A stretch of DNA of 64,000 bases, taken from a virus. Taxonomy: Duplodnaviria > Caudoviricetes. This document shows, piece by piece, positions 9,096-64,000 of this stretch. Below the pieces are notes generated by a model. That model saw only the letters and a program-made list of their open reading frames with translations, made no database searches and was not told the DNA's origin. Location: IMG/VR virus record IMGVR_UViG_3300024269_004845. One strand, written 5' to 3'. Each line of letters opens with the position of its first letter. The first letter of the stretch is position 1. Position numbers and translations under genes: made by a program.

Positions 9096-9615
9096 TTCGA
9101 ATAACCTCCTTTTAAAAATTTTTGATATTGTTTTTATATTGTAATATCTGTCAAATTGAGATATTACATAATTTGGTTTTATAGGAGATTATCCGAAAAA
9201 CTTAAAATCTCCAAAAATCAAATTATATAATATGATATTAATCATTTTTTAATTTTATAACTAAAATGTGCTTACTAGAACATTATTGTTATATTTTTTT
9301 TAGAATCAATTTCAATCATCATTTTCATATTTAATTTCATTTGGTTTGAAACAAATATTACAATTGACAATTTCTCATTGTCTTATATATCATATTTTAA
9401 TCTTTCTTTAATTTATTATCAAAAAGTGTTTTACAGAATAAAAAATGTTTTTACATTTTTTTCTAACGTCTGAAATCTTTTATTGGTGTCCTTTTCCTTA
9501 TATTTATATAAATAAAAACATATTATTTAATATGTTTTGTAAGTTCCAATTATCGCTTATATCACAGGATACACGTCCTAAAAGAAAAGGAGGTGTCCCG
9601 TTAACGGGAACTAAT

Positions 9616-11688
9616 ATGCAAATTAACGAAATTAGAGAAAAAATTATTGATACTCTTTATACATCGCAGCCTACTGCGATGAAATCTTTGGCTAGAAAAA
9701 TTGAGCTTACTAAAGAAGATTATAAACCATTTCGTATTGTTCTAAATAATTTGGAGAAAACAAATTTGGTGGATAACACTAACGGTAAATATGCTTTTCC
9801 TTCAAATTTTAACATTGGATACTTACAAACATTTAAGAAAAGCGAAAATTATATCTTCTTTAAGAATAAAAAATATCAAGTGGTTGAAGATGTTACTAAT
9901 AGTGCCATTCATGGCGATAAAGTGATTTTTGAAGTTGTTGATAGATATTTACAGACTGTAAGAATTATATCTACAATAAAAAGAAAAAGCACAAAGGTTG
10001 CTGGAATCTATGTTGAATATAATGGTATCGGCTTCGTAGTTCCTGACAATGATAGGTTGAATGTTGATATATATGTGCAAAGAAATAATATTAAGCCAAA
10101 TCTTTATGATAGGGTATTGGTTAAAATCGATGAATATAAAGTTTTCGGCAAGCCTGAAGGGGTTATCGAAAAAAAACTATTTGAAGATTTAAATAAAGAA
10201 GAATCGGCTCTTGAACGTGTTTTATCAAAATATGATATTCCAGCAGAATTTCCAAATGATGTTGTGAAAAAAGCAATCTTGTTAAATGTTCCAGTTAAGA
10301 ATAACATGATAACAGAAAGAGTTGATTTAAGAGATGAAAACATCTTTACTATTGATGGTAAAGACGCTCGTGACTTTGACGATGCTATTTCTATAAAAAA
10401 GACAGAATTCGGATATGAACTTGGTGTTTATATTGCTGATGTATCTTATTATGTACAAGAAAATAGTGTTATAGATAAGTGTGCATTTGAAAGAGGCACT
10501 AGTTATTATTTAGATGATTATGTCGTCCCAATGCTCCCAGTTGCACTATCTAATGGCGTGTGCAGTTTAAATGAGGGAGAAGATAAATTAGTAATTGGTT
10601 TAAAAATAATTTTTGACAATTATGGAAAGATTTTGAATCATGAATTGTTTGAAGCGGTTATATGTTCTAAAAAACGCTTTACATATGAAGAAATAAATGA
10701 CTATCTTAATGGCAAAAATCCAAGATTTAAAGATGATAATCGCTTATTATTCGACGATTTAATGGCTGGTTTTGAATTGGCAGAATTATTAAATAAAAAG
10801 CGTAGTAATAATGGATGTATTGATTTTGAATTTGGTGAGCTTACTTTTAAAAGAAATGATGACAAAAAAATCATTGATTTTGGGACATATGAAAGGGGTC
10901 CAGCAAATGATTTAATTGAAGAGTTTATGATAGTTGCTAATGAAACTATTGCTGAAATATTTGCTGGGTTGGGGCATCCATTTATATATAGAACTCATGG
11001 GGTTCCGTTCAGCGAAAAACTGCAAAATTTTGTTGATATTTGCAAAGAAAACAATATTGATTGCTCAATGCTCGATATAAATAATCCTACTTCTAAACAA
11101 TTGAAAGAACTAATATCCAACATTGAAGATTCTAATCTAAAAAAGAGTATTAATATGAACTTAATTACTACTATGAAACAAGCTCGTTATACAAATGAGT
11201 TTGATGGGCATTTTGGGTTAGCATCTCAATATTACTGTCACTTCACGTCTCCCATTCGTAGATATCCTGACTTATTTATTCATAGGCTAGTTAAAAAATA
11301 CATCCGTAAAAAACTTAACAATGATGTTACTAAAGAGCTTTATGAAAAAATGAGTGAAAAGGTCGCTAAACATTGTTGTTATACCGAGCGTAATGCAGAT
11401 AGAGCAGAAGAGGAATTGAATAGAATTCAGGCTATGCAATATATGGCTGATAATCCTGAAAGAGAATATGAAGCTTTAATATATGGGATTAACAGAAATG
11501 GGTTATTGATTCTCGTCAATGATGTTGTTTCTGGATTTATTCGTGCTAAAAATGATAATGAAGATGGATTAGCATCATCCATCATTATAAATGATATCAC
11601 TTATAAGATTGGCGATAAAATTAATGTTTCTTTTAAAGAGTATGATGTTAAAAACTCGAAATTAATTTTTGACCCATTGGAGGGATAA
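9616..11688 (+). CDS. rnr: Ribonuclease R (RNB family); ORF open from 9445, likely start ATG 9616
   Basis: FTIDGKDARDFDDAIS, IADVS, LIEEFMIVAN and HFTSPIRRYPDL motifs; N-terminal HTH/cold-shock and C-terminal S1-like regions. Confidence 0.93.
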   Translation: MQINEIREKIIDTLYTSQPTAMKSLARKIELTKEDYKPFRIVLNNLEKTNLVDNTNGKYAFPSNFNIGYLQTFKKSENYIFFKNKKYQVVEDVTNSAIHGDKVIFEVVDRYLQTVRIISTIKRKSTKVAGIYVEYNGIGFVVPDNDRLNVDIYVQRNNIKPNLYDRVLVKIDEYKVFGKPEGVIEKKLFEDLNKEESALERVLSKYDIPAEFPNDVVKKAILLNVPVKNNMITERVDLRDENIFTIDGKDARDFDDAISIKKTEFGYELGVYIADVSYYVQENSVIDKCAFERGTSYYLDDYVVPMLPVALSNGVCSLNEGEDKLVIGLKIIFDNYGKILNHELFEAVICSKKRFTYEEINDYLNGKNPRFKDDNRLLFDDLMAGFELAELLNKKRSNNGCIDFEFGELTFKRNDDKKIIDFGTYERGPANDLIEEFMIVANETIAEIFAGLGHPFIYRTHGVPFSEKLQNFVDICKENNIDCSMLDINNPTSKQLKELISNIEDSNLKKSINMNLITTMKQARYTNEFDGHFGLASQYYCHFTSPIRRYPDLFIHRLVKKYIRKKLNNDVTKELYEKMSEKVAKHCCYTERNADRAEEELNRIQAMQYMADNPEREYEALIYGINRNGLLILVNDVVSGFIRAKNDNEDGLASSIIINDITYKIGDKINVSFKEYDVKNSKLIFDPLEG

Positions 11689-11864: not shown

Positions 11865-12491
11865 TTAGCTCACTTTTTTTGTATCCCACCAATCCAAAGA
11901 TTCTAAATATTTTTGAGATAGTGGAAAATCTTCTTTTTTGTAATTAAACCAAAAATCGTTAAACTGTAACATATAAACATCCGCAAAAAACTCGCTAGAA
12001 TCTTTTTGAGCATATTCTCTAATTTTTGATTTTTCTTTTTTATAAATATTTTCGAATATTTCTGACTCGTCTGGGTCGCCATTTATTTTGCTTAGCGCAT
12101 GAGCTACTTCATGTAGTAAATTTGCGCCAACCTGGTCGGTAACGGGATAAAGATATATTCGTTTATCAGCGTAAACTGTAAGTCCTGCAAAAAATCTATA
12201 ATATTCCTTGCTATAAGAAATAATTTTTTCTTTATTAATTTCTATTTTATAGCCTGCGTCTCTCAATATCTCTAGGTGGTTTCTTGGTATAGATAATAAG
12301 TTTTTCATAGACATAATATTGGCAAAAGAATAGTGTTTGTCTTGGACAAGAAGTTCATCTGCTAAATTATAATTGGGATGGTATTTCATTCCGTTTATAT
12401 AACTACAAATAAAAAATATTATAAAAATAATAAGCATAACAAATGTTACTAATACCATTTTTGAAATTTTGAGAATACAATTTTTAAGCAT
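11865..12491 (-). CDS. Membrane-anchored zinc metallopeptidase, anthrax lethal factor/Pro-Pro endopeptidase-like fold
   Basis: N-terminal TM; LLHEVAHAL (HExxH) and YAQKDSSEFFADVY motifs. Confidence 0.7.
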   Translation of the reverse strand: MLKNCILKISKMVLVTFVMLIIFIIFFICSYINGMKYHPNYNLADELLVQDKHYSFANIMSMKNLLSIPRNHLEILRDAGYKIEINKEKIISYSKEYYRFFAGLTVYADKRIYLYPVTDQVGANLLHEVAHALSKINGDPDESEIFENIYKKEKSKIREYAQKDSSEFFADVYMLQFNDFWFNYKKEDFPLSQKYLESLDWWDTKKVS

Positions 12492-13386
12492 GATATTTTT
12501 CTCCTAATATATATCTAACGATATTAAAATCATACGGGAAACCTGCAGCCATTTCATGTCCTCCACCACCATATTTTTCAGCAATTTTAGAAACGTTGAT
12601 GGTTCCAAAACTTCTTAATGAAATCGAATTTGGCATACTAATAAACATAAATAGCTTTATTTCGGGGTATGAGGTGTGTATATCTGTTAAAATTTTACTT
12701 ATATATAATGATTCTTCTAAAAAGAAAACCCCTGTTTTATAGCCTTCAAAATCAACGAAAAACAATTCTTTTTGTTTTTGTTTTGAATACATATCTATTT
12801 TATTTTTCATATTTGTCGTGACATCTATATCTGAATAAGAAAGTATATATCCTTTTTTTAAATTAGGAAGAATGTGTCTCCAATAATTTCTAAAATAAAT
12901 AAAAAATAAAATGCTTAGTTCATTGGGGCAATATTTAGAATTATATTTATTTCTCATATATTCTCCCGTATCAAAAAGCCTGACGGTTTCTACATAGTCA
13001 GATATTATATCAACTTTATCTATTTCGCCATTATCTGATAAGTAATTATAAAATAATTGTGTTGCGCAGGTAGGTTTTCCTTTATATGTAGTCTTAATGC
13101 GTGCCCAAGAATATTTATTCAAAAATTCACCTGTTTCGTGATGGTCGATAAGTATGAAATTATCAATGTTGTTGTTAATATATTCTGCTACTTCAGCTGA
13201 TGGATATACATCACACAAAAAGATTTTTTTATACTTATGCATATCTGGGCTATTGAAAAAGTTCATTAATTCTTGGTCTACTAATTTGTTGTTTATATTT
13301 TTTATATCTACTTTTAAATTATAATAACGAGCTACTACGTTAATAGAATATCCATCTAAATCATTATGAGAGAATATTTTATACAT
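12484..13386 (-). CDS. DHH/DHHA1 phosphoesterase (NrnA/NrnB-like oligoribonuclease)
   Basis: SHNDLDG, LIDHHET, SLRS and GGGGHEMAAG motifs. Confidence 0.88.
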   Translation of the reverse strand: MYKIFSHNDLDGYSINVVARYYNLKVDIKNINNKLVDQELMNFFNSPDMHKYKKIFLCDVYPSAEVAEYINNNIDNFILIDHHETGEFLNKYSWARIKTTYKGKPTCATQLFYNYLSDNGEIDKVDIISDYVETVRLFDTGEYMRNKYNSKYCPNELSILFFIYFRNYWRHILPNLKKGYILSYSDIDVTTNMKNKIDMYSKQKQKELFFVDFEGYKTGVFFLEESLYISKILTDIHTSYPEIKLFMFISMPNSISLRSFGTINVSKIAEKYGGGGHEMAAGFPYDFNIVRYILGEKYHA

Positions 13387-61097: not shown

Positions 61098-61233
61098 TCG
61101 AAGACATGTTGTATGTCAAACTAAACAACTTCAAGTTATCGCAGAGTTCTTATAGAAGAATGGGCCCAAATAATAAATTAGTAGTGGCAAGCGAAAGTTT
61201 ATGGGTTGAAGCGGATTAAAGAAGTTTTTAAAT

Positions 61234-61376
61234 GGTCCCATCGACAAGTGGTCTAAGTCGTCGCCCTTTCGTTGGATTAGTTTAAGTAAAACATTACTGC
61301 GGTAAAGATTTGAGTGCAAGTCTCATGTTCAGCACCAAAGGCGGAGTCACGGGTTCGAATCCCGTTGGGACTACCA
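61234..61376 (+). tRNA. tRNA-Glu(TTC) interrupted after the anticodon by a 67-nt tRNA-like insert (halves 61234-61270 and 61338-61376)
   Basis: Joining the halves gives a canonical 76-nt cloverleaf with TCGCC-CT-TTC-AA-GGCGG and CCA. Confidence 0.85.
61271..61337 (+). ncRNA. Nested mini-tRNA-like element ending in CCA
   Basis: Acceptor GTTGGAT/GTTCAGC; D-arm GTTT-AAGTA-AAAC; short arm TTAC-TGCG-GTAA; T-arm TGAG-TGCAAGT-CTCA; then ACCA. Confidence 0.75.
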
Positions 61377-61386
61377 TTTTAAACAT

Positions 61387-61463
61387 GCTCCCATCCTCTA
61401 ACGGGCCTAGGAGTCATCCCTTTCAAGGATGCAATGCGAGTTCGAGCCTCGCTGGGAGTACCA
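61387..61463 (+). tRNA. tRNA-Glu(TTC)
   Basis: CATCC-CT-TTC-AA-GGATG; CCA. Confidence 0.92.
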
Positions 61464-61469
61464 CTATAT

Positions 61470-61545
61470 TCCTCGTTAGTCTAGTTGGTAAAACGGCGGA
61501 CTGTTAATCCGTATAGCGCTGGTTCGAGCCCAGCACGAGGAGCCA
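61470..61545 (+). tRNA. tRNA-Asn(GTT)
   Basis: GCGGA-CT-GTT-AA-TCCGT; CCA. Confidence 0.93.
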
Positions 61546-61633
61546 CGCTGCTGTGGAATGCGGAACCCTTAATCACCACAGGTGGGTACGGTTGGTAAAC
61601 CGCTAAGGTAATCTTAGAAAAGCTTCCTTATAC

Positions 61634-61707
61634 GCTGGCATAGTTTAAAGGTAAAACAAGGACCTTGTAAGTCTTAGTTCCCAGTTCGATTCTGGGTGCC
61701 AGCTCCA
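61634..61707 (+). tRNA. tRNA-Thr(TGT)
   Basis: AGGAC-CT-TGT-AA-GTCTT; CCA. Confidence 0.93.
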
Positions 61708-61713
61708 TATGTC

Positions 61714-61742
61714 TTTACTTCTTGTTAAAAAATGTATATAAT
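61714..61742 (+). promoter_or_regulatory. Internal sigmaA-like promoter ahead of the VIT1/CCC1 gene
   Basis: TTTACT, 17-bp spacer, TATAAT. Confidence 0.55.
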
Positions 61743-61771
61743 AGATATATATTAATTATGGAGGTAATATT

Positions 61772-62650
61772 TTGAAAAATATATCCGAAAAAAGTTTGTC
61801 TATTATAAGAAAGATGCAACAAAATGAATTAACTGAAAGCGTTATATATCGTGAAATTGCTAAATTTGCAAAAGGTGAAGATAATAAATCTACTCTAAAT
61901 CGTTTAGCAGACGAAGAATTTAAGCACTATGAAATCTGGAAGAAATATACCAATGAAGAAATGAAACCAGAAAAGCGAAAGGTGTTTAAATACAAATGGA
62001 TTGCTCGTATATTTGGTTTTACATTTGCTGTTAAGCTTATGGAAAACGGAGAAATGGATGCTCAAAAAGAGTATGAACAATTAAAAGACGAAGTTCCTGA
62101 AAGCATAGGAGTTAGGAAGCAGGAAGAAGAGCACGAGGAAGCATTATTAAATATGCTGGATGAAGAACGACTTCAATATATAGGGAGTATGGTTCTTGGG
62201 ATGAATGATGCTCTTGTAGAATTAACGGGTTCTCTTGCTGGGTTTACATTTGCTATGCAAAATACCAAGCTAATTGCGCTTGCAGGATTAATTATTGGCA
62301 TTTCAGCAACTTTTTCGATGGCTTCCAGTGAATTTTTATCTGCTAAAAGCGAAGGGAGAACAGATGCACTAAAATCCTGTTCTTATACTGGGATTGCTTA
62401 TTTAATGACAGTTATTTTATTAATATTACCGTATTTATTGTTGGGTAGTACTCAATATATATTGGCTTTAGTATTTATGATGTTAACTGTTATAGCAATC
62501 ATAGCAGTATTTACATATTATATATCTGTAGCTCAAGGAGAAAATTTTAAATCCAGATTTTCTGAAATGGCGCTGATAAGTGTTAGTGTTGCAGTATTAT
62601 CTTTTGTTGTTGGGATACTTGCTAAACAGTTTCTTGGAGTAGAAATTTAA
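61772..62650 (+). CDS. Rubrerythrin-like domain plus VIT1/CCC1 iron transporter family protein
   Basis: ExxH di-iron motifs (DEEFKH, EEEHE), then VLGMNDALVE, SMASSEFLS and several TM helices. Confidence 0.88.
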   Translation: MKNISEKSLSIIRKMQQNELTESVIYREIAKFAKGEDNKSTLNRLADEEFKHYEIWKKYTNEEMKPEKRKVFKYKWIARIFGFTFAVKLMENGEMDAQKEYEQLKDEVPESIGVRKQEEEHEEALLNMLDEERLQYIGSMVLGMNDALVELTGSLAGFTFAMQNTKLIALAGLIIGISATFSMASSEFLSAKSEGRTDALKSCSYTGIAYLMTVILLILPYLLLGSTQYILALVFMMLTVIAIIAVFTYYISVAQGENFKSRFSEMALISVSVAVLSFVVGILAKQFLGVEI

Positions 62651-62659
62651 CTTTGGTAA

Positions 62660-62876
62660 AAACAAATATCGATGGCAGTAGTTCAAGTGTTTAGATTATG
62701 CCTTTTCTAAATAGGACTGTCGAGAAATGTGAAAGTAACGACCACTAAGGTTATTTTAAAAGTTCTCTAACAAGGGTGTGTAGGCTGCACTACGAGTCAA
62801 ATAATCTTCGTATTGGTTGTTCTAATGTACATGATGCCAAAAACTGGACACATTGTAAACTTGAACATATTTGTTT
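62660..62876 (+). ncRNA. Candidate structured ncRNA (about 220 nt)
   Basis: Closing helices AAACAAATAT/ATATTTGTTT and GTTCAAGT/ACTTGAAC; several internal helices; no ORF. Confidence 0.6.
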
Positions 62877-62886
62877 CTACATATAT

Positions 62887-63138
62887 TGGTGACCTCTACC
62901 AACCGTTCTAAATGGGAGATACCTCAAAAGCACACCCGTGTGAGAGTGAGATAAGTGAGATAGCTTATAATTCAGAAGACGAATATAGGGTTATAAGTGA
63001 TGCCTGGTGACAAAAGGGGCTTGAATAATGCGTCGGTTCGTGAGTTTGTGTAGCTTAAAGTTGAAGTAACACAGAGAATACCATTGGTGAGAGTAGAACG
63101 TCATGGGTAGTTACTACGGGTTATTCACAAAACTTTTT
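62887..63138 (+). ncRNA. Unclassified structured ncRNA, copy 1
   Basis: Shares ordered sequence blocks and covarying stems with 63745-64000. Confidence 0.7.
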
Positions 63139-63152
63139 ATTTAAACTTATCT

Positions 63153-63227
63153 GCTGGTGTGGCTCAATGGCAGAGCAGCGGTATCGTAAACCGCAGGTTG
63201 CAAGTTCGACTCTTGTCACCAGCTCCA
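63153..63227 (+). tRNA. tRNA-Thr(CGT)
   Basis: GCGGT-AT-CGT-AA-ACCGC; CCA. Confidence 0.93.
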
Positions 63228-63249
63228 ACAAAAACAAGGAGCGTGATTT

Positions 63250-63549
63250 ATGATGGATAGTCAGTTAAAGATTTGTCCTAAATGTGGGAAAGTAGTTTCT
63301 TATAAATATCATTTTCACAGATATGTTTGTGATGAATGCGGATGGGAGGAAGAGATTCCTGAAGTAAGCGATGAAGAAACACCAGAAGATAAAAGATTAA
63401 GAGAGCTCTTTTTAGATAAGATTTGTAGAAAATATCCTTGTGGTTCTCAAAGATGTGATGGTGGTCCCGAATGGATTACTGGATGTTCATTATATAAAGA
63501 ATTCATAAAAGGTGTGGATACCTTGTCTGAACAATTATTAAACAAATAA
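63250..63549 (+). CDS. Small Cys-rich zinc-ribbon protein
   Basis: AAGGAG RBS; CPKCG...CDECG plus a second Cys cluster. Confidence 0.7.
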   Translation: MMDSQLKICPKCGKVVSYKYHFHRYVCDECGWEEEIPEVSDEETPEDKRLRELFLDKICRKYPCGSQRCDGGPEWITGCSLYKEFIKGVDTLSEQLLNK

Positions 63550-63572
63550 TTAATTGCTCGAACAAAAAAAAG

Positions 63573-63601
63573 TAGACTTTTATTAATATTTATGTTATAA
63601 T
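63573..63601 (+). promoter_or_regulatory. sigmaA-like promoter for tRNA-Asp and the downstream ncRNA
   Basis: TAGACT, 17-bp spacer, extended -10 TGtTATAAT. Confidence 0.65.
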
Positions 63602-63667
63602 ATATAATAGTTTGGTTGATTGTGGCGTATTAGCACAAAACAATACGTAATTCCAAACTTTCTATAT

Positions 63668-63744
63668 GGCTCGGTAGTTCAGATGGTTAGAACGCCGCCC
63701 TGTCACGGCGGAGGTCGAGGGTTCGAGTCCCTTCCGAGTCGCCA
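63668..63744 (+). tRNA. tRNA-Asp(GTC), canonical
   Basis: CCGCC-CT-GTC-AC-GGCGG; G73; CCA. Confidence 0.96.
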
Positions 63745-64000
63745 TGGAGAACTCTGCCTACCACTCCTAATGGGGGATAGCCTTATTATCATTCATTTTA
63801 GAATGTGCGGGTGAAACAAGTGAGATAGTCTGTAGGTTGATGCGGTCAGAGATTTACAGATGATAGCTGGAGACCAATGGGCTTTGAAGAAATTGGTCGG
63901 ACACGGATATGTCGTAACTTTTAGGGTTGCAAGGAATGACATATTTGTGCTTGCGCTGCCTATGCGCAAAACCCTTTTAAAACGTGGGGTCGTTGCCCAC
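63745..64000 (+). ncRNA. Unclassified structured ncRNA, copy 2 (truncated by the window end)
   Basis: Starts directly after the tRNA-Asp CCA; homologous to 62887-63138; several hairpins. Confidence 0.7.

What the first reader, a model, noticed from the sequence alone, without database searches (positions are those of the whole stretch)
61234..61376. A tRNA inside a tRNA: CCA-ended mini-tRNA inserted right after the anticodon of tRNA-Glu(TTC)
Seen: removing 61271-61337 (67 nt) restores an intact 76-nt tRNA-Glu. The insert is itself a cloverleaf running from acceptor base 1 to CCA with no flanking bases: 7-bp acceptor GTTGGAT/GTTCAGC, D-arm GTTT-AAGTA-AAAC (close to the D-arm of tRNA-Thr at 61634), an anticodon arm shrunk to 4 bp plus TGCG, and T-loop TGCAAGT. 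It is far too short for a group I or II intron and shows no bulge-helix-bulge. Inference, three options: (a) a new intron type excised by RNase P and 3' processing, then religated by an RtcB-like ligase; (b) a fossil of RNA-level ligation of a mature tRNA-like RNA into an anticodon-nicked tRNA, later copied to DNA; (c) a two-headed tRNA decoy for anticodon nucleases. The undegraded outer halves suggest selection or a recent event.
Basis: partly seen in the sequence, partly recalled or inferred. Interest (0 to 1): 0.9.

Follow-up and report, generated by a model that had tools for sequence, protein, structure and literature searches.

The report
tRNA-shaped intron in plasmid tRNA-Glu
A glutamate tRNA gene on a giant conjugative plasmid-like element is split in its anticodon loop by a conserved 67-base insert that is itself tRNA-shaped, which suggests, without proving, that ordinary tRNA-trimming enzymes plus an RNA ligase splice it out.

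Summary
Observation confirmed. Window 61234-61376 is a tRNA-Glu(UUC) gene split between nt 36 and 37 by a 67-nt insert (61271-61337). The Rfam tRNA model aligns the insert end to end (29-32 bits), and it ends in ACCA. Removing it gives a clean 76-nt tRNA-Glu. The gene lies in a tRNA operon of a >=297-kb, 32% GC conjugative plasmid-like replicon; no phage genes were seen.

The split gene recurs in five independent metagenome assemblies, four from a lineage about 12% diverged. Exons are 75-76/76 identical (P~5e-4). The insert's acceptor/D/T core is 53-54/55 identical. Its stub arm changed at 5 of 12 positions, with one compensatory pair. It is therefore neither an artefact nor a decaying pseudogene. 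The insert most resembles tRNA-Thr.

Best reading (~50%): an intron cut by RNase P at its 5' end and by an endonuclease after its CCA, then sealed by a 3'-OH/5'-P RNA ligase, not RtcB. No step is shown. No ligase lies in the window, and two intact tRNA-Glu(UUC) genes share the operon. Rivals: an unspliced tRNA mimic, or the mini-tRNA as the product.

This scan reported the same class repeatedly in huge phages. The nearest published case is the Lak megaphage 'enigmatic' tRNA introns. New here: a plasmid-like host replicon, evidence of selection and a tRNA-Thr origin.

The parts
61234..61270 (+). 5' exon of tRNA-Glu(UUC): acceptor 5' strand, D arm, anticodon stem 5' strand and loop bases C32-C36
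   Evidence: ARAGORN -i. The spliced sequence is called tRNA-Glu(ttc), 76 nt. 36-37 of 37 bases are identical in the ~12% diverged variants.
61271..61337 (+). 67-nt tRNA-shaped insert (candidate intron), from G+1 to the 3' ACCA
   Evidence: Rfam RF00005 aligns it end to end at 29.2 bits, and at 31.7 bits in L007. The MFE fold is a cloverleaf. It is present in five independent assemblies.
61271..61277 (+). Insert acceptor stem, 5' strand (GTTGGAT); pairs with 61327-61333
   Evidence: Invariant in all variants.
61280..61292 (+). Insert D arm (GTTT-AAGTA-AAAC), preceded by U8; A14 and A21 are kept and the GG is reduced to one G
   Evidence: alignment. One variant (L006) has C22>G, which breaks one pair.
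61294..61305 (+). Stub arm replacing the anticodon arm: 4-bp stem TTAC/GTAA with tetraloop TGCG
   Evidence: In the variants it reads TTGC-TTTT-GCAA. That is one compensatory A-U>G-C pair and three loop changes. 5 of 12 positions changed.
61310..61326 (+). Insert T arm (TTGAG-TGCAAGT-CTCAT); keeps G53-C61, U54, C56, A57 and A58, with G at position 55. A 7-bp hairpin at 61306-61323 is an alternative fold
   Evidence: Two variant changes keep pairing only in the alternative hairpin.
61327..61337 (+). Insert acceptor 3' strand (GTTCAGC), discriminator A and CCA
   Evidence: Invariant in all variants.
61338..61376 (+). 3' exon of tRNA-Glu(UUC): A37, A38, anticodon stem 3' strand, variable loop, T arm, acceptor 3' strand, ACCA
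   Evidence: 39 of 39 bases are identical in all variants.
60185..60213 (+). Promoter-like site of the tRNA operon that holds the split gene
   Evidence: 11 of 12 consensus matches plus an extended -10 TG.
60446..60486 (+). Terminator-like hairpin with T tract between the promoter/leader ORF and the first tRNA. No further + strand terminator-like site before 63459, far beyond the last tRNA of this block (61707)
61634..61707 (+). tRNA-Thr(UGU), the closest relative of the insert in the array
   Evidence: 47 of 67 bases identical, score 53 against a shuffled best of 35 +/- 3.3. Best non-self hit of the insert model R1, 34.4 bits.

Best explanation
The 143-nt gene encodes a precursor tRNA-Glu(UUC). 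Its anticodon loop carries a tRNA-shaped intron derived from a tRNA-Thr-like gene that has lost its anticodon loop.

Proposed route (every step is inferred, none is shown):
1. The operon transcript folds into two nested cloverleaves.
2. RNase P recognises the inner acceptor/T-arm stack with its G1-C72 pair and ACCA tail. It cuts between C36 of the outer tRNA and G+1 of the insert (61270/61271). This leaves a 3'-OH on the 5' exon.
3. A 3'-end endonuclease cuts directly after the insert's CCA (61337/61338). This could be an RNase Z acting after CCA, as in Thermotoga maritima. It leaves a 5'-phosphate on A37.
4. The two exons stay held together by the outer acceptor and anticodon stems. The nick, with 3'-OH and 5'-phosphate ends in the anticodon loop, is sealed by an ATP-dependent RNA ligase of the Rnl1, Rnl2 or Pnkp type, supplied by the replicon or the host.
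5. The free 67-nt mini-tRNA is a by-product, or has a role of its own.
For: - **Exact boundaries.** The Rfam tRNA alignment starts at the first base of the insert, and the insert ends in ACCA with no flanking bases. Removing it restores a 76-nt tRNA-Glu(ttc).
- **tRNA core kept.** The insert keeps the features that tRNA end-processing enzymes read: 7-bp acceptor stem with G1-C72, A73-CCA, U8, A14, A21, G53-C61, U54, C56 and A58. It lacks any anticodon loop.
- **Selection.** Against variants with 87.5% background identity, the exons differ at 0-1 of 76 positions (P=4.6e-4). The insert outside the stub arm differs at 1-2 of 55 (1 of 55 in L007, P=0.006). The stub arm differs at 5 of 12, with an A-U to G-C compensatory pair.
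- **Real junctions.** They occur in five independent assemblies.
- **No other splicing signal.** No ribozyme or group I match was found in or around the insert at E<=1, and the fold shows no bulge-helix-bulge.
- **Zero-spacer architecture.** The array already uses CCA|+1 junctions that RNase P alone can resolve. These are Met|Met at L001 11988/11989, and tRNA-Asn CCA directly abutting G1 of this gene in the variants.
- **Co-transcription.** The gene lies in one promoter-driven block with eight intact tRNAs.
- **Unverified leads.** First-stage notes on the same replicon report a second CCA-ended mini-tRNA inside tRNA-Thr(UGU), an RNase Z-like gene and an HD-type CCA enzyme outside my window.
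Against: - No RNA evidence of any kind.
- No RNA ligase or RtcB gene among the ORFs of at least 137 aa in the 64-kb window. The rest of the >=297-kb replicon could not be read.
- A precise endonucleolytic cut after an encoded CCA is unusual. In Bacillus subtilis, CCA inhibits RNase Z, and CCA-bearing precursors are trimmed by exonucleases, which would destroy the 3' exon (own knowledge).
- Two intact tRNA-Glu(UUC) genes (60761, 61387) sit in the same operon, so a spliced product is not obviously needed.
- Covariation rests on 4 distinct sequences and one compensatory pair, and is not significant on its own.
- The insert as a whole (6-7 of 67 changes) is not clearly slower than background (P=0.25).
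- No intron-less allele and no second copy were found in the DNA I could read.
Confidence: 0.5

Rival explanations
1. Unspliced, stable tRNA mimic. The 143-nt RNA is the final product. It would be a tRNA-Glu body whose anticodon arm is extended into a three-hairpin 'knob'. It would act as a decoy or sponge for a protein that binds tRNA-Glu, such as an anticodon nuclease, a toxin or a modification enzyme, or in regulation of the operon.
For: - The full-length MFE fold stacks the outer anticodon stem, a UUU/AAA helix and the insert's acceptor stem into one long arm.
- The same array holds other conserved non-canonical tRNA-like RNAs, for example 60845-61015, which is 95% identical in the variants.
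- Two intact tRNA-Glu(UUC) genes make a third decoder redundant.
Against: - The insert runs exactly from tRNA position +1 to CCA.
- Its removal restores a perfect 7-nt loop CUUUCAA. A decoy has no need for either feature.
- A G1-C72/ACCA tRNA-like domain inside a transcript is expected to be cut by RNase P (own knowledge: mascRNA, tRNA punctuation).
Confidence: 0.2
2. The mini-tRNA is the product. The outer tRNA-Glu serves only as a folding and processing scaffold that is cut and discarded. A 67-nt CCA-ended, anticodon-less tRNA-like RNA is released with a role of its own, for example as a substrate or decoy for CCA-adding or repair enzymes, a primer, or an amino-acid carrier outside translation.
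For: - The insert's acceptor/D/T core is under purifying selection (1 of 55 changes, P=0.006).
- It keeps the conserved tRNA core nucleotides.
- tRNA-like units are a known way to release RNAs through RNase P and RNase Z (own knowledge).
Against: - A scaffold would not need 100% conserved exons with an intact split anticodon loop.
- The array could encode such an RNA as a free-standing gene, as it does for its other odd RNAs.
Confidence: 0.15
3. Inactive relic. A one-off insertion of a tRNA-derived sequence, at RNA or DNA level, killed a redundant tRNA-Glu copy, which is now drifting.
For: - Redundant intact tRNA-Glu(UUC) copies sit in the operon.
- Only one lineage carries the insert, and no mobile copies were found elsewhere.
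- The insert's overall divergence (about 10%) is close to background.
Against: - The exons differ at 0-1 of 76 positions against an expected ~9.5 (P=4.6e-4).
- Changes in the insert are concentrated in the stub arm (Fisher P=4e-4) and include a compensatory pair.
- The boundaries are invariant.
Confidence: 0.1
4. Assembly artefact: a chimeric join of two tRNA genes.
For: tRNA arrays break short-read assemblies. Contigs L003-L005 stop before the array, and L010 is a likely chimera with its breakpoint inside the insert.
Against: The junctions are identical in L001, L006, L007, L009 and L011, from five samples. These include a SPAdes-style NODE contig, k141-named contigs and a JGI assembly, and span two lineages about 12% apart.
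Confidence: 0.01

Closest known systems
'Enigmatic' tRNA introns of Lak megaphages (Devoto et al. 2019, Nat Microbiol, PMC6784885; main text, Fig. 4 legend, Table S6)
   Same: Short inserts in the anticodon loop of tRNA genes on a very large, low-GC mobile replicon from gut communities. They are too short for group I introns. At least one 'may itself encode a tRNA', and they are highly conserved between samples. The removal mechanism is unknown there too.
   Different: The Lak introns are 79-114 nt. As printed in Table S6 they start with a shared leader (taca...aaattaaac) before the tRNA-like part, and they end in ...ca or ...cta rather than ACCA. Here the tRNA-like unit fills the insert exactly from +1 to CCA, has lost its anticodon loop, and sits on a conjugative plasmid-like replicon rather than a phage. 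No sequence similarity was found.
tRNA-shaped mini-introns reported earlier by this scan in huge phages (e.g. e1-5665240, e1-3634531, e1-5369829; AI notes, not publications)
   Same: CCA-ended tRNA-like or minihelix inserts of 44-117 nt in or beside the anticodon. Two examples, of 67 and 68 nt, have a full cloverleaf. The inferred route is the same: tRNA-trimming enzymes plus a ligase.
   Different: All of those are in phage genomes. This one is on a replicon with T4SS coupling proteins, a VirB4-like ATPase and Tad-type pilus genes, with no phage structural hits. No shared sequence words with them were found.
Group I introns in bacterial tRNA anticodon loops (e.g. cyanobacterial tRNA-Leu(UAA); own knowledge)
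   Same: They interrupt the anticodon loop of a bacterial-type tRNA gene.
   Different: Those are self-splicing ribozymes of more than 200 nt with a P1-P9 core. This insert is 67 nt, is tRNA-shaped, and gives no Rfam intron or ribozyme hit at E<=1.
tRNA-like processing signals: mitochondrial tRNA punctuation and the MALAT1 mascRNA (own knowledge)
   Same: A tRNA-shaped module inside a longer transcript directs RNase P (5') and RNase Z (3') cuts that release flanking RNAs. This is the cutting logic proposed here.
   Different: There the flanks are not rejoined. Here the flanks are the two halves of another tRNA and would need ligation.
Phage T4 anticodon-loop repair, PrrC / Pnkp / Rnl1 (own knowledge)
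   Same: An ATP-dependent RNA ligase seals a nick in a tRNA anticodon loop held together by the tRNA body. This is the sealing step proposed here.
   Different: In T4 the nick comes from a host anticodon nuclease and needs end healing. Here the ends left by RNase P and RNase Z would already be 3'-OH and 5'-P. No ligase gene has been identified on this replicon.
Archaeal and eukaryal bulge-helix-bulge tRNA introns, and the split or permuted tRNAs of Nanoarchaeum and Cyanidioschyzon (own knowledge)
   Same: Protein-dependent tRNA splicing of short introns near the anticodon.
   Different: Those need a BHB motif and the EndA/Sen endonuclease, and give 2',3'-cyclic phosphate and 5'-OH ends joined by RtcB. 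The fold here has no BHB, the site is 36/37 rather than 37/38, and the setting is bacterial.

Membership tests
tRNA-like ('enigmatic') introns of huge phages (Lak type) | Insert lies in the anticodon loop of an otherwise intact tRNA gene | tested here: met
   ARAGORN -i. The spliced sequence is tRNA-Glu(ttc), 76 nt.
tRNA-like ('enigmatic') introns of huge phages (Lak type) | Insert contains a tRNA-like cloverleaf and is too short for a group I or II intron | tested here: met
   RF00005 scores 29.2 and 31.7 bits end to end; the insert is 67 nt.
tRNA-like ('enigmatic') introns of huge phages (Lak type) | Carried by a phage genome | tested here: not met
   The window holds T4SS coupling proteins, a VirB4-like ATPase, Tad-type pilus genes, TopoIII and RecD2. 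PHROGs gave no structural hits. Only 64 kb of >=297 kb were read.
tRNA-like ('enigmatic') introns of huge phages (Lak type) | Shared intron sequence or architecture (5' leader hairpin plus tRNA-like part, no CCA) | tested here: not met
   By reading Table S6, the Lak introns have a leader and end in ca or cta. Here the insert is exactly +1..ACCA. No hit in viral contigs or phages.
tRNA-like ('enigmatic') introns of huge phages (Lak type) | Insert is removed from the RNA (a true intron) | not testable with these tools
Canonical tRNA (Rfam RF00005), applied to the insert | Cloverleaf with acceptor, D and T arms, reaching the family's gathering score | tested here: met
   29.2 bits against GA 29 (window) and 31.7 bits (L007). 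This is borderline.
Canonical tRNA (Rfam RF00005), applied to the insert | 5-bp anticodon stem with a 7-nt loop presenting an anticodon | tested here: not met
   The arm is a 4-bp stem with a 4-nt loop, TGCG or TTTT. ARAGORN does not call the insert alone.
Group I intron in a tRNA anticodon loop | Ribozyme core of more than 200 nt (P1-P9), matching Rfam Intron_gpI | tested here: not met
   The insert is 67 nt. No Rfam hit other than tRNA at E<=1.
Small self-cleaving ribozyme introns (hammerhead, twister, HDV-like and others) | Match to a ribozyme family within or flanking the insert | tested here: not met
   No such Rfam match in 60000-64000 at E<=1.
Bulge-helix-bulge (archaeal/eukaryal) tRNA intron | Two 3-nt bulges separated by a 4-bp helix at the splice sites | tested here: not met
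   The MFE and centroid folds show a 1x3 internal loop between a 3-bp UUU/AAA helix and the insert's acceptor stem, with no BHB.
Bulge-helix-bulge (archaeal/eukaryal) tRNA intron | EndA/Sen-type splicing endonuclease available | not tested
   None seen among the Pfam-scanned ORFs of the window. The host and the rest of the replicon are unknown.

The most novel reading that the evidence does not exclude
Bacterial mobile elements beyond phages use a protein-only tRNA splicing pathway. In it the intron is a tRNA look-alike, so the universal tRNA end-processing enzymes (RNase P and an RNase Z-type endonuclease acting after CCA) excise it, and a 3'-OH/5'-P RNA ligase reseals the anticodon loop. The excised anticodon-less mini-tRNA may be a second functional product. 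The intron family would spread between tRNA genes; a second copy in tRNA-Thr is reported, unverified, elsewhere on this replicon.
Probability: 0.4. Interest if true: 0.85.

Novelty: new member of a known kind. Interest (0 to 1): 0.68.

Why it matters
If the insert is spliced out as proposed, it would be a third kind of tRNA intron, alongside self-splicing group I introns and bulge-helix-bulge introns. It would need no dedicated splicing endonuclease, because the intron mimics the substrate of RNase P and the 3'-end enzymes.

Published evidence is limited to a short remark on Lak megaphages. This case shows that the design is not confined to phages: it sits on a conjugative plasmid-like replicon.

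It also supplies what the anecdotes lacked. There is comparative evidence that both the split tRNA and the tRNA-like core of the insert are under selection. There is a concrete 143-nt substrate with defined cut sites (61270/61271 and 61337/61338) for in vitro tests.

It also bears on how tRNA arrays of giant mobile elements evolve, and on natural precedents for tRNA-based RNA processing cassettes used in synthetic biology.

Tried and rejected
**Exact-word scans**
- The insert's 37-mer and its conserved 21-mer gave nothing in viral contigs, metagenome contigs and genome contigs.
- The spliced-junction 42-mer in genome contigs found no intron-less homologue.

**BLAST**
- Megablast of the array against phages and plasmids hit only generic tRNAs or nothing.
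- Distant blastn of the insert against phages gave only chance 19-26-nt matches.

**Flanking proteins and genome searches**
- Flanking proteins found no relatives in viral contigs.
- No whole genome is held for the window, and the loci's records are not held.
- A search of 201 genomes of the order of G001, the genome with a 36% homologue of the neighbouring protein, gave only two 23-nt T-arm matches.

**Related replicons**
- Contigs anchored on the ParC/GyrA-like gene share synteny but end before the array.
- More distant loci anchored on the VIT gene (L012-L016) are other tRNA-array elements without this gene.

**Other checks**
- Rfam on the other 60 kb of the window found no further tRNA-like or ribozyme element.
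- The insert model R1 found no second copy in any held DNA.
- Covariation tests on 4 distinct sequences are not significant.
- Hodor gut megaplasmids (PMC12934698) were considered as the replicon family and set aside. They are 44-47% GC and the paper does not mention tRNAs.
- I could not find a published demonstration of splicing of such introns.

Full report
**1. What is in the sequence**

Plain ARAGORN skips the stretch. With introns allowed it calls one tRNA over exactly 61234-61376 with a 67-nt intron.

ARAGORN chose a register 2 nt to the left, giving anticodon TCA. Any 67-nt excision gives a 7-nt loop. Only the excision of 61271-61337 restores CTTTCAA, the loop of both intact tRNA-Glu(UUC) genes of the window's array. 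That product is called tRNA-Glu(ttc), 76 nt. So the insert lies between C36 and A37.

The Rfam tRNA model aligns the insert from model position 1 to 71 over 61271-61334. It scores 29.2 bits against a gathering score of 29, with E 7e-5 on the local stretch. The variant in L007 scores 31.7 bits. CCA follows at 61335-61337, and the exon resumes at once.

The insert keeps the following tRNA features:
- U8, A14 and A21;
- the G53-C61 pair;
- U54, C56, A57 and A58;
- a G1-C72 pair and discriminator A.

In place of an anticodon arm it has a 4-bp stem with a tetraloop. No other Rfam family matches in or around it at E<=1: no group I intron, hammerhead, twister or HDV-like ribozyme. The predicted fold has no bulge-helix-bulge.

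**2. Where it lies**

The window is 32% GC. It encodes the following:
- T4SS coupling proteins and a VirB4-like ATPase;
- Tad-type pilus genes (CpaF-like ATPase, RcpC);
- TopoIII, RecD2 and a GyrB/ParC-like pair;
- an RNase R/II-like protein and a DHH/DHHA1 protein.

PHROGs gave no phage structural hits. The neighbouring 414-aa protein is seen on at least 24 contigs, the longest 297 kb. I read the replicon as a giant conjugative plasmid-like element, as a first-stage note also did. The closest cellular homologues of its ParC-like and VIT genes are from Lachnospiraceae.

The split gene is the fifth of nine tRNA genes in one block. The block runs Glu-CUC, Thr-GGU, Glu-UUC, Asn, the split gene, Glu-UUC, Asn, Thr-UGU. 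It follows a near-consensus promoter and a terminator-like attenuator, and no + strand terminator-like site follows until 63459, well past the block's last tRNA at 61707. The array continues past the window.

**3. Is it real, and is it conserved?**

L001, from JGI sample 3300018493, is identical to the window over 11 kb. Using the VIT gene inside the array as an anchor, I reached a second lineage with about 88% DNA identity. It is represented in four further samples: L006, L007, L009 and L011. L010 is a probable chimera.

All of them carry the same split gene with the same boundaries. An assembly artefact is therefore excluded.

Non-tRNA sequence around the gene is 87.5% identical between the lineages. 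Against that background:

| Region | Differences | Test |
|---|---|---|
| Exons | 0-1 of 76 | P=4.6e-4 |
| Insert outside the stub arm | 1-2 of 55 (1 in L007) | P=0.006 |
| Stub arm | 5 of 12 | Fisher against the rest of the insert, P=4e-4 |

The stub stem changed from TTAC/GTAA to TTGC/GCAA, which is a compensatory A-U to G-C change. The loop changed from TGCG to TTTT. Two further changes keep pairing in an alternative 7-bp hairpin. One variant (L006) breaks a D-stem pair. With four distinct sequences, the covariation statistics alone are not significant.

The pattern is what one expects if two things hold. First, the outer tRNA must stay functional. Second, the insert must keep the tRNA top half, D arm and ends, while its third arm is only a spacer that must pair.

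The other tRNAs of the array fall into two classes. A conserved class is at least 98.7% identical: Asn-61470, Thr-CGU, Asp and the split Glu. A replaced class is 67-87% identical and still folds as tRNAs.

**4. Origin of the insert**

Among all tRNAs in the held loci, the insert is closest to the array's own tRNA-Thr(UGU) at 61634-61707. It shares 47 of 67 bases, with score 53 against 35 +/- 3.3 for shuffled inserts.

A covariance model of the insert finds only tRNA-Thr genes apart from the inserts themselves, at 34.4, 28.5, 25.8 and 20.5 bits. The insert is therefore a tRNA-Thr derivative that has lost its anticodon loop.

I found no second copy and no intron-less allele in any DNA I could read, nor in three public collections by exact words.

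First-stage notes on the same replicon report several further items, all outside my window:
- a 66-nt CCA-ended mini-tRNA inside tRNA-Thr(UGU);
- an interrupted tRNA-Tyr;
- an RNase Z-like gene;
- an HD-type CCA enzyme.

I could not verify any of these.

**5. How it most likely works**

The exact +1-to-CCA boundaries and the selective retention of what RNase P and 3'-end enzymes read point to one route. RNase P cuts at 61270/61271. An endonuclease cuts after CCA at 61337/61338. The nick in the anticodon loop is then ligated.

By established enzymology, RNase P and RNase Z leave 3'-OH and 5'-phosphate ends. The matching ligase is therefore of the ATP-dependent Rnl or Pnkp type, as in T4 anticodon-loop repair.

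The array already uses zero-spacer CCA|+1 junctions that RNase P alone resolves.

The weak points are these:
- no step is shown;
- no ligase lies in the window;
- in Bacillus, CCA inhibits RNase Z (own knowledge);
- two intact tRNA-Glu(UUC) genes make the spliced product redundant.

I give this route about 50%. The rivals are:
- an unspliced tRNA mimic, about 20%. The long continuous arm and the other odd tRNA-like RNAs in the array speak for it. The perfect restoration of a 7-nt loop speaks against it.
- the mini-tRNA as the real product, about 15%;
- a drifting relic, about 10%, disfavoured by the selection tests.

**6. Comparison with what is known**

The nearest published case is the 'enigmatic' tRNA introns of Lak megaphages. 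One of them 'may itself encode a tRNA'. Their sequences in Table S6 show a shared 5' leader followed by a tRNA-like part, with no terminal CCA, and lengths of 79-114 nt. The architecture therefore differs.

I found no paper that demonstrates how such introns are removed.

This scan has reported CCA-ended tRNA-shaped inserts many times in huge phages.

I file this as a new member of a barely described kind. It is notable for the replicon type, the full cloverleaf bounded exactly by +1 and CCA, the tRNA-Thr ancestry and the evidence of selection.

Noticed in passing
window 60839-61021 (tRNA-like core about 60845-61015): A 171-nt tRNA-like RNA lies between tRNA-Glu(UUC) and tRNA-Asn, with an acceptor-like stem, an ACCA tail and a long internal arm. 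It is 95% identical in the ~12% diverged lineage, more conserved than the coding genes.
   Followed up: partly
window 60493-61707 and 63153-63744, against L006, L007 and L011: The array's tRNA genes fall into two classes between lineages. One class is nearly invariant (>=98.7%): the split Glu, Asn-61470, Thr-CGU and Asp. The other is 67-87% identical, still folds as tRNA with the same anticodon, and has many paired stem changes or whole-arm replacements: Glu-CUC, Thr-GGU, both intact Glu-UUC, Asn-61022 and Thr-UGU. These genes diverge faster than the spacers. This suggests cassette replacement or diversifying pressure.
   Followed up: partly
window 61098-61233: This 136-nt AT-rich spacer exists only in the window's lineage. 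In the other lineage the CCA of tRNA-Asn directly abuts G1 of the split tRNA-Glu. Its fold is no better than shuffled sequence (z -0.33).
   Followed up: partly
window 62651-63152; L016 1562-1717: A ~500-nt ORF-free stretch between the VIT gene and tRNA-Thr(CGU) is 91-92% conserved between lineages. Part of it (62886-63037) has a 73% identical counterpart in L016, the tRNA array of a different element. It is a candidate large structured RNA with no Rfam match.
   Followed up: no
L001 12061-12121 (about 900 nt beyond the window's end): A weak HDV-like ribozyme match (RF02682, 23 bits, E 0.2) starts right after a CCA-less tRNA-Met (L001 11989-12060). This agrees with a first-stage note of a theta-type ribozyme there.
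   Followed up: partly
window 61772-62650; L012, L014, L016: A VIT1/CCC1-family transporter gene is embedded in tRNA arrays in at least three different large elements. One is on a 343-kb contig with GIY-YIG endonucleases and HU. The gene is 77-84% identical to Lachnospiraceae homologues.
   Followed up: partly
L012 9749-9930; L014 9917-9999: Over-long class I tRNAs occur in another element's array: tRNA-Ile(UAU) of 86 nt and tRNA-Gln(UUG) of 82-83 nt. They may carry small internal insertions.
   Followed up: no
window 9445-11688 and 12484-13386: The replicon encodes an RNase R/II-like exoribonuclease (RNB domain, E 3e-101) and a DHH/DHHA1 protein (NrnA/RecJ-like). This is an RNA-turnover toolkit unusual for a plasmid.
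   Followed up: no
L010 1-205: Contig L010 joins GC-rich unrelated sequence to the array exactly inside the insert's stub-arm loop (GCTTTTGC). It is probably an assembly chimera and was not used as evidence.
   Followed up: partly
window 60185-60490: A near-consensus promoter, a 29-codon leader ORF (per a first-stage note and the gene calls of L001 and L006) and a 14-bp terminator hairpin precede the array. The leader region is about 91% conserved between lineages.
   Followed up: partly
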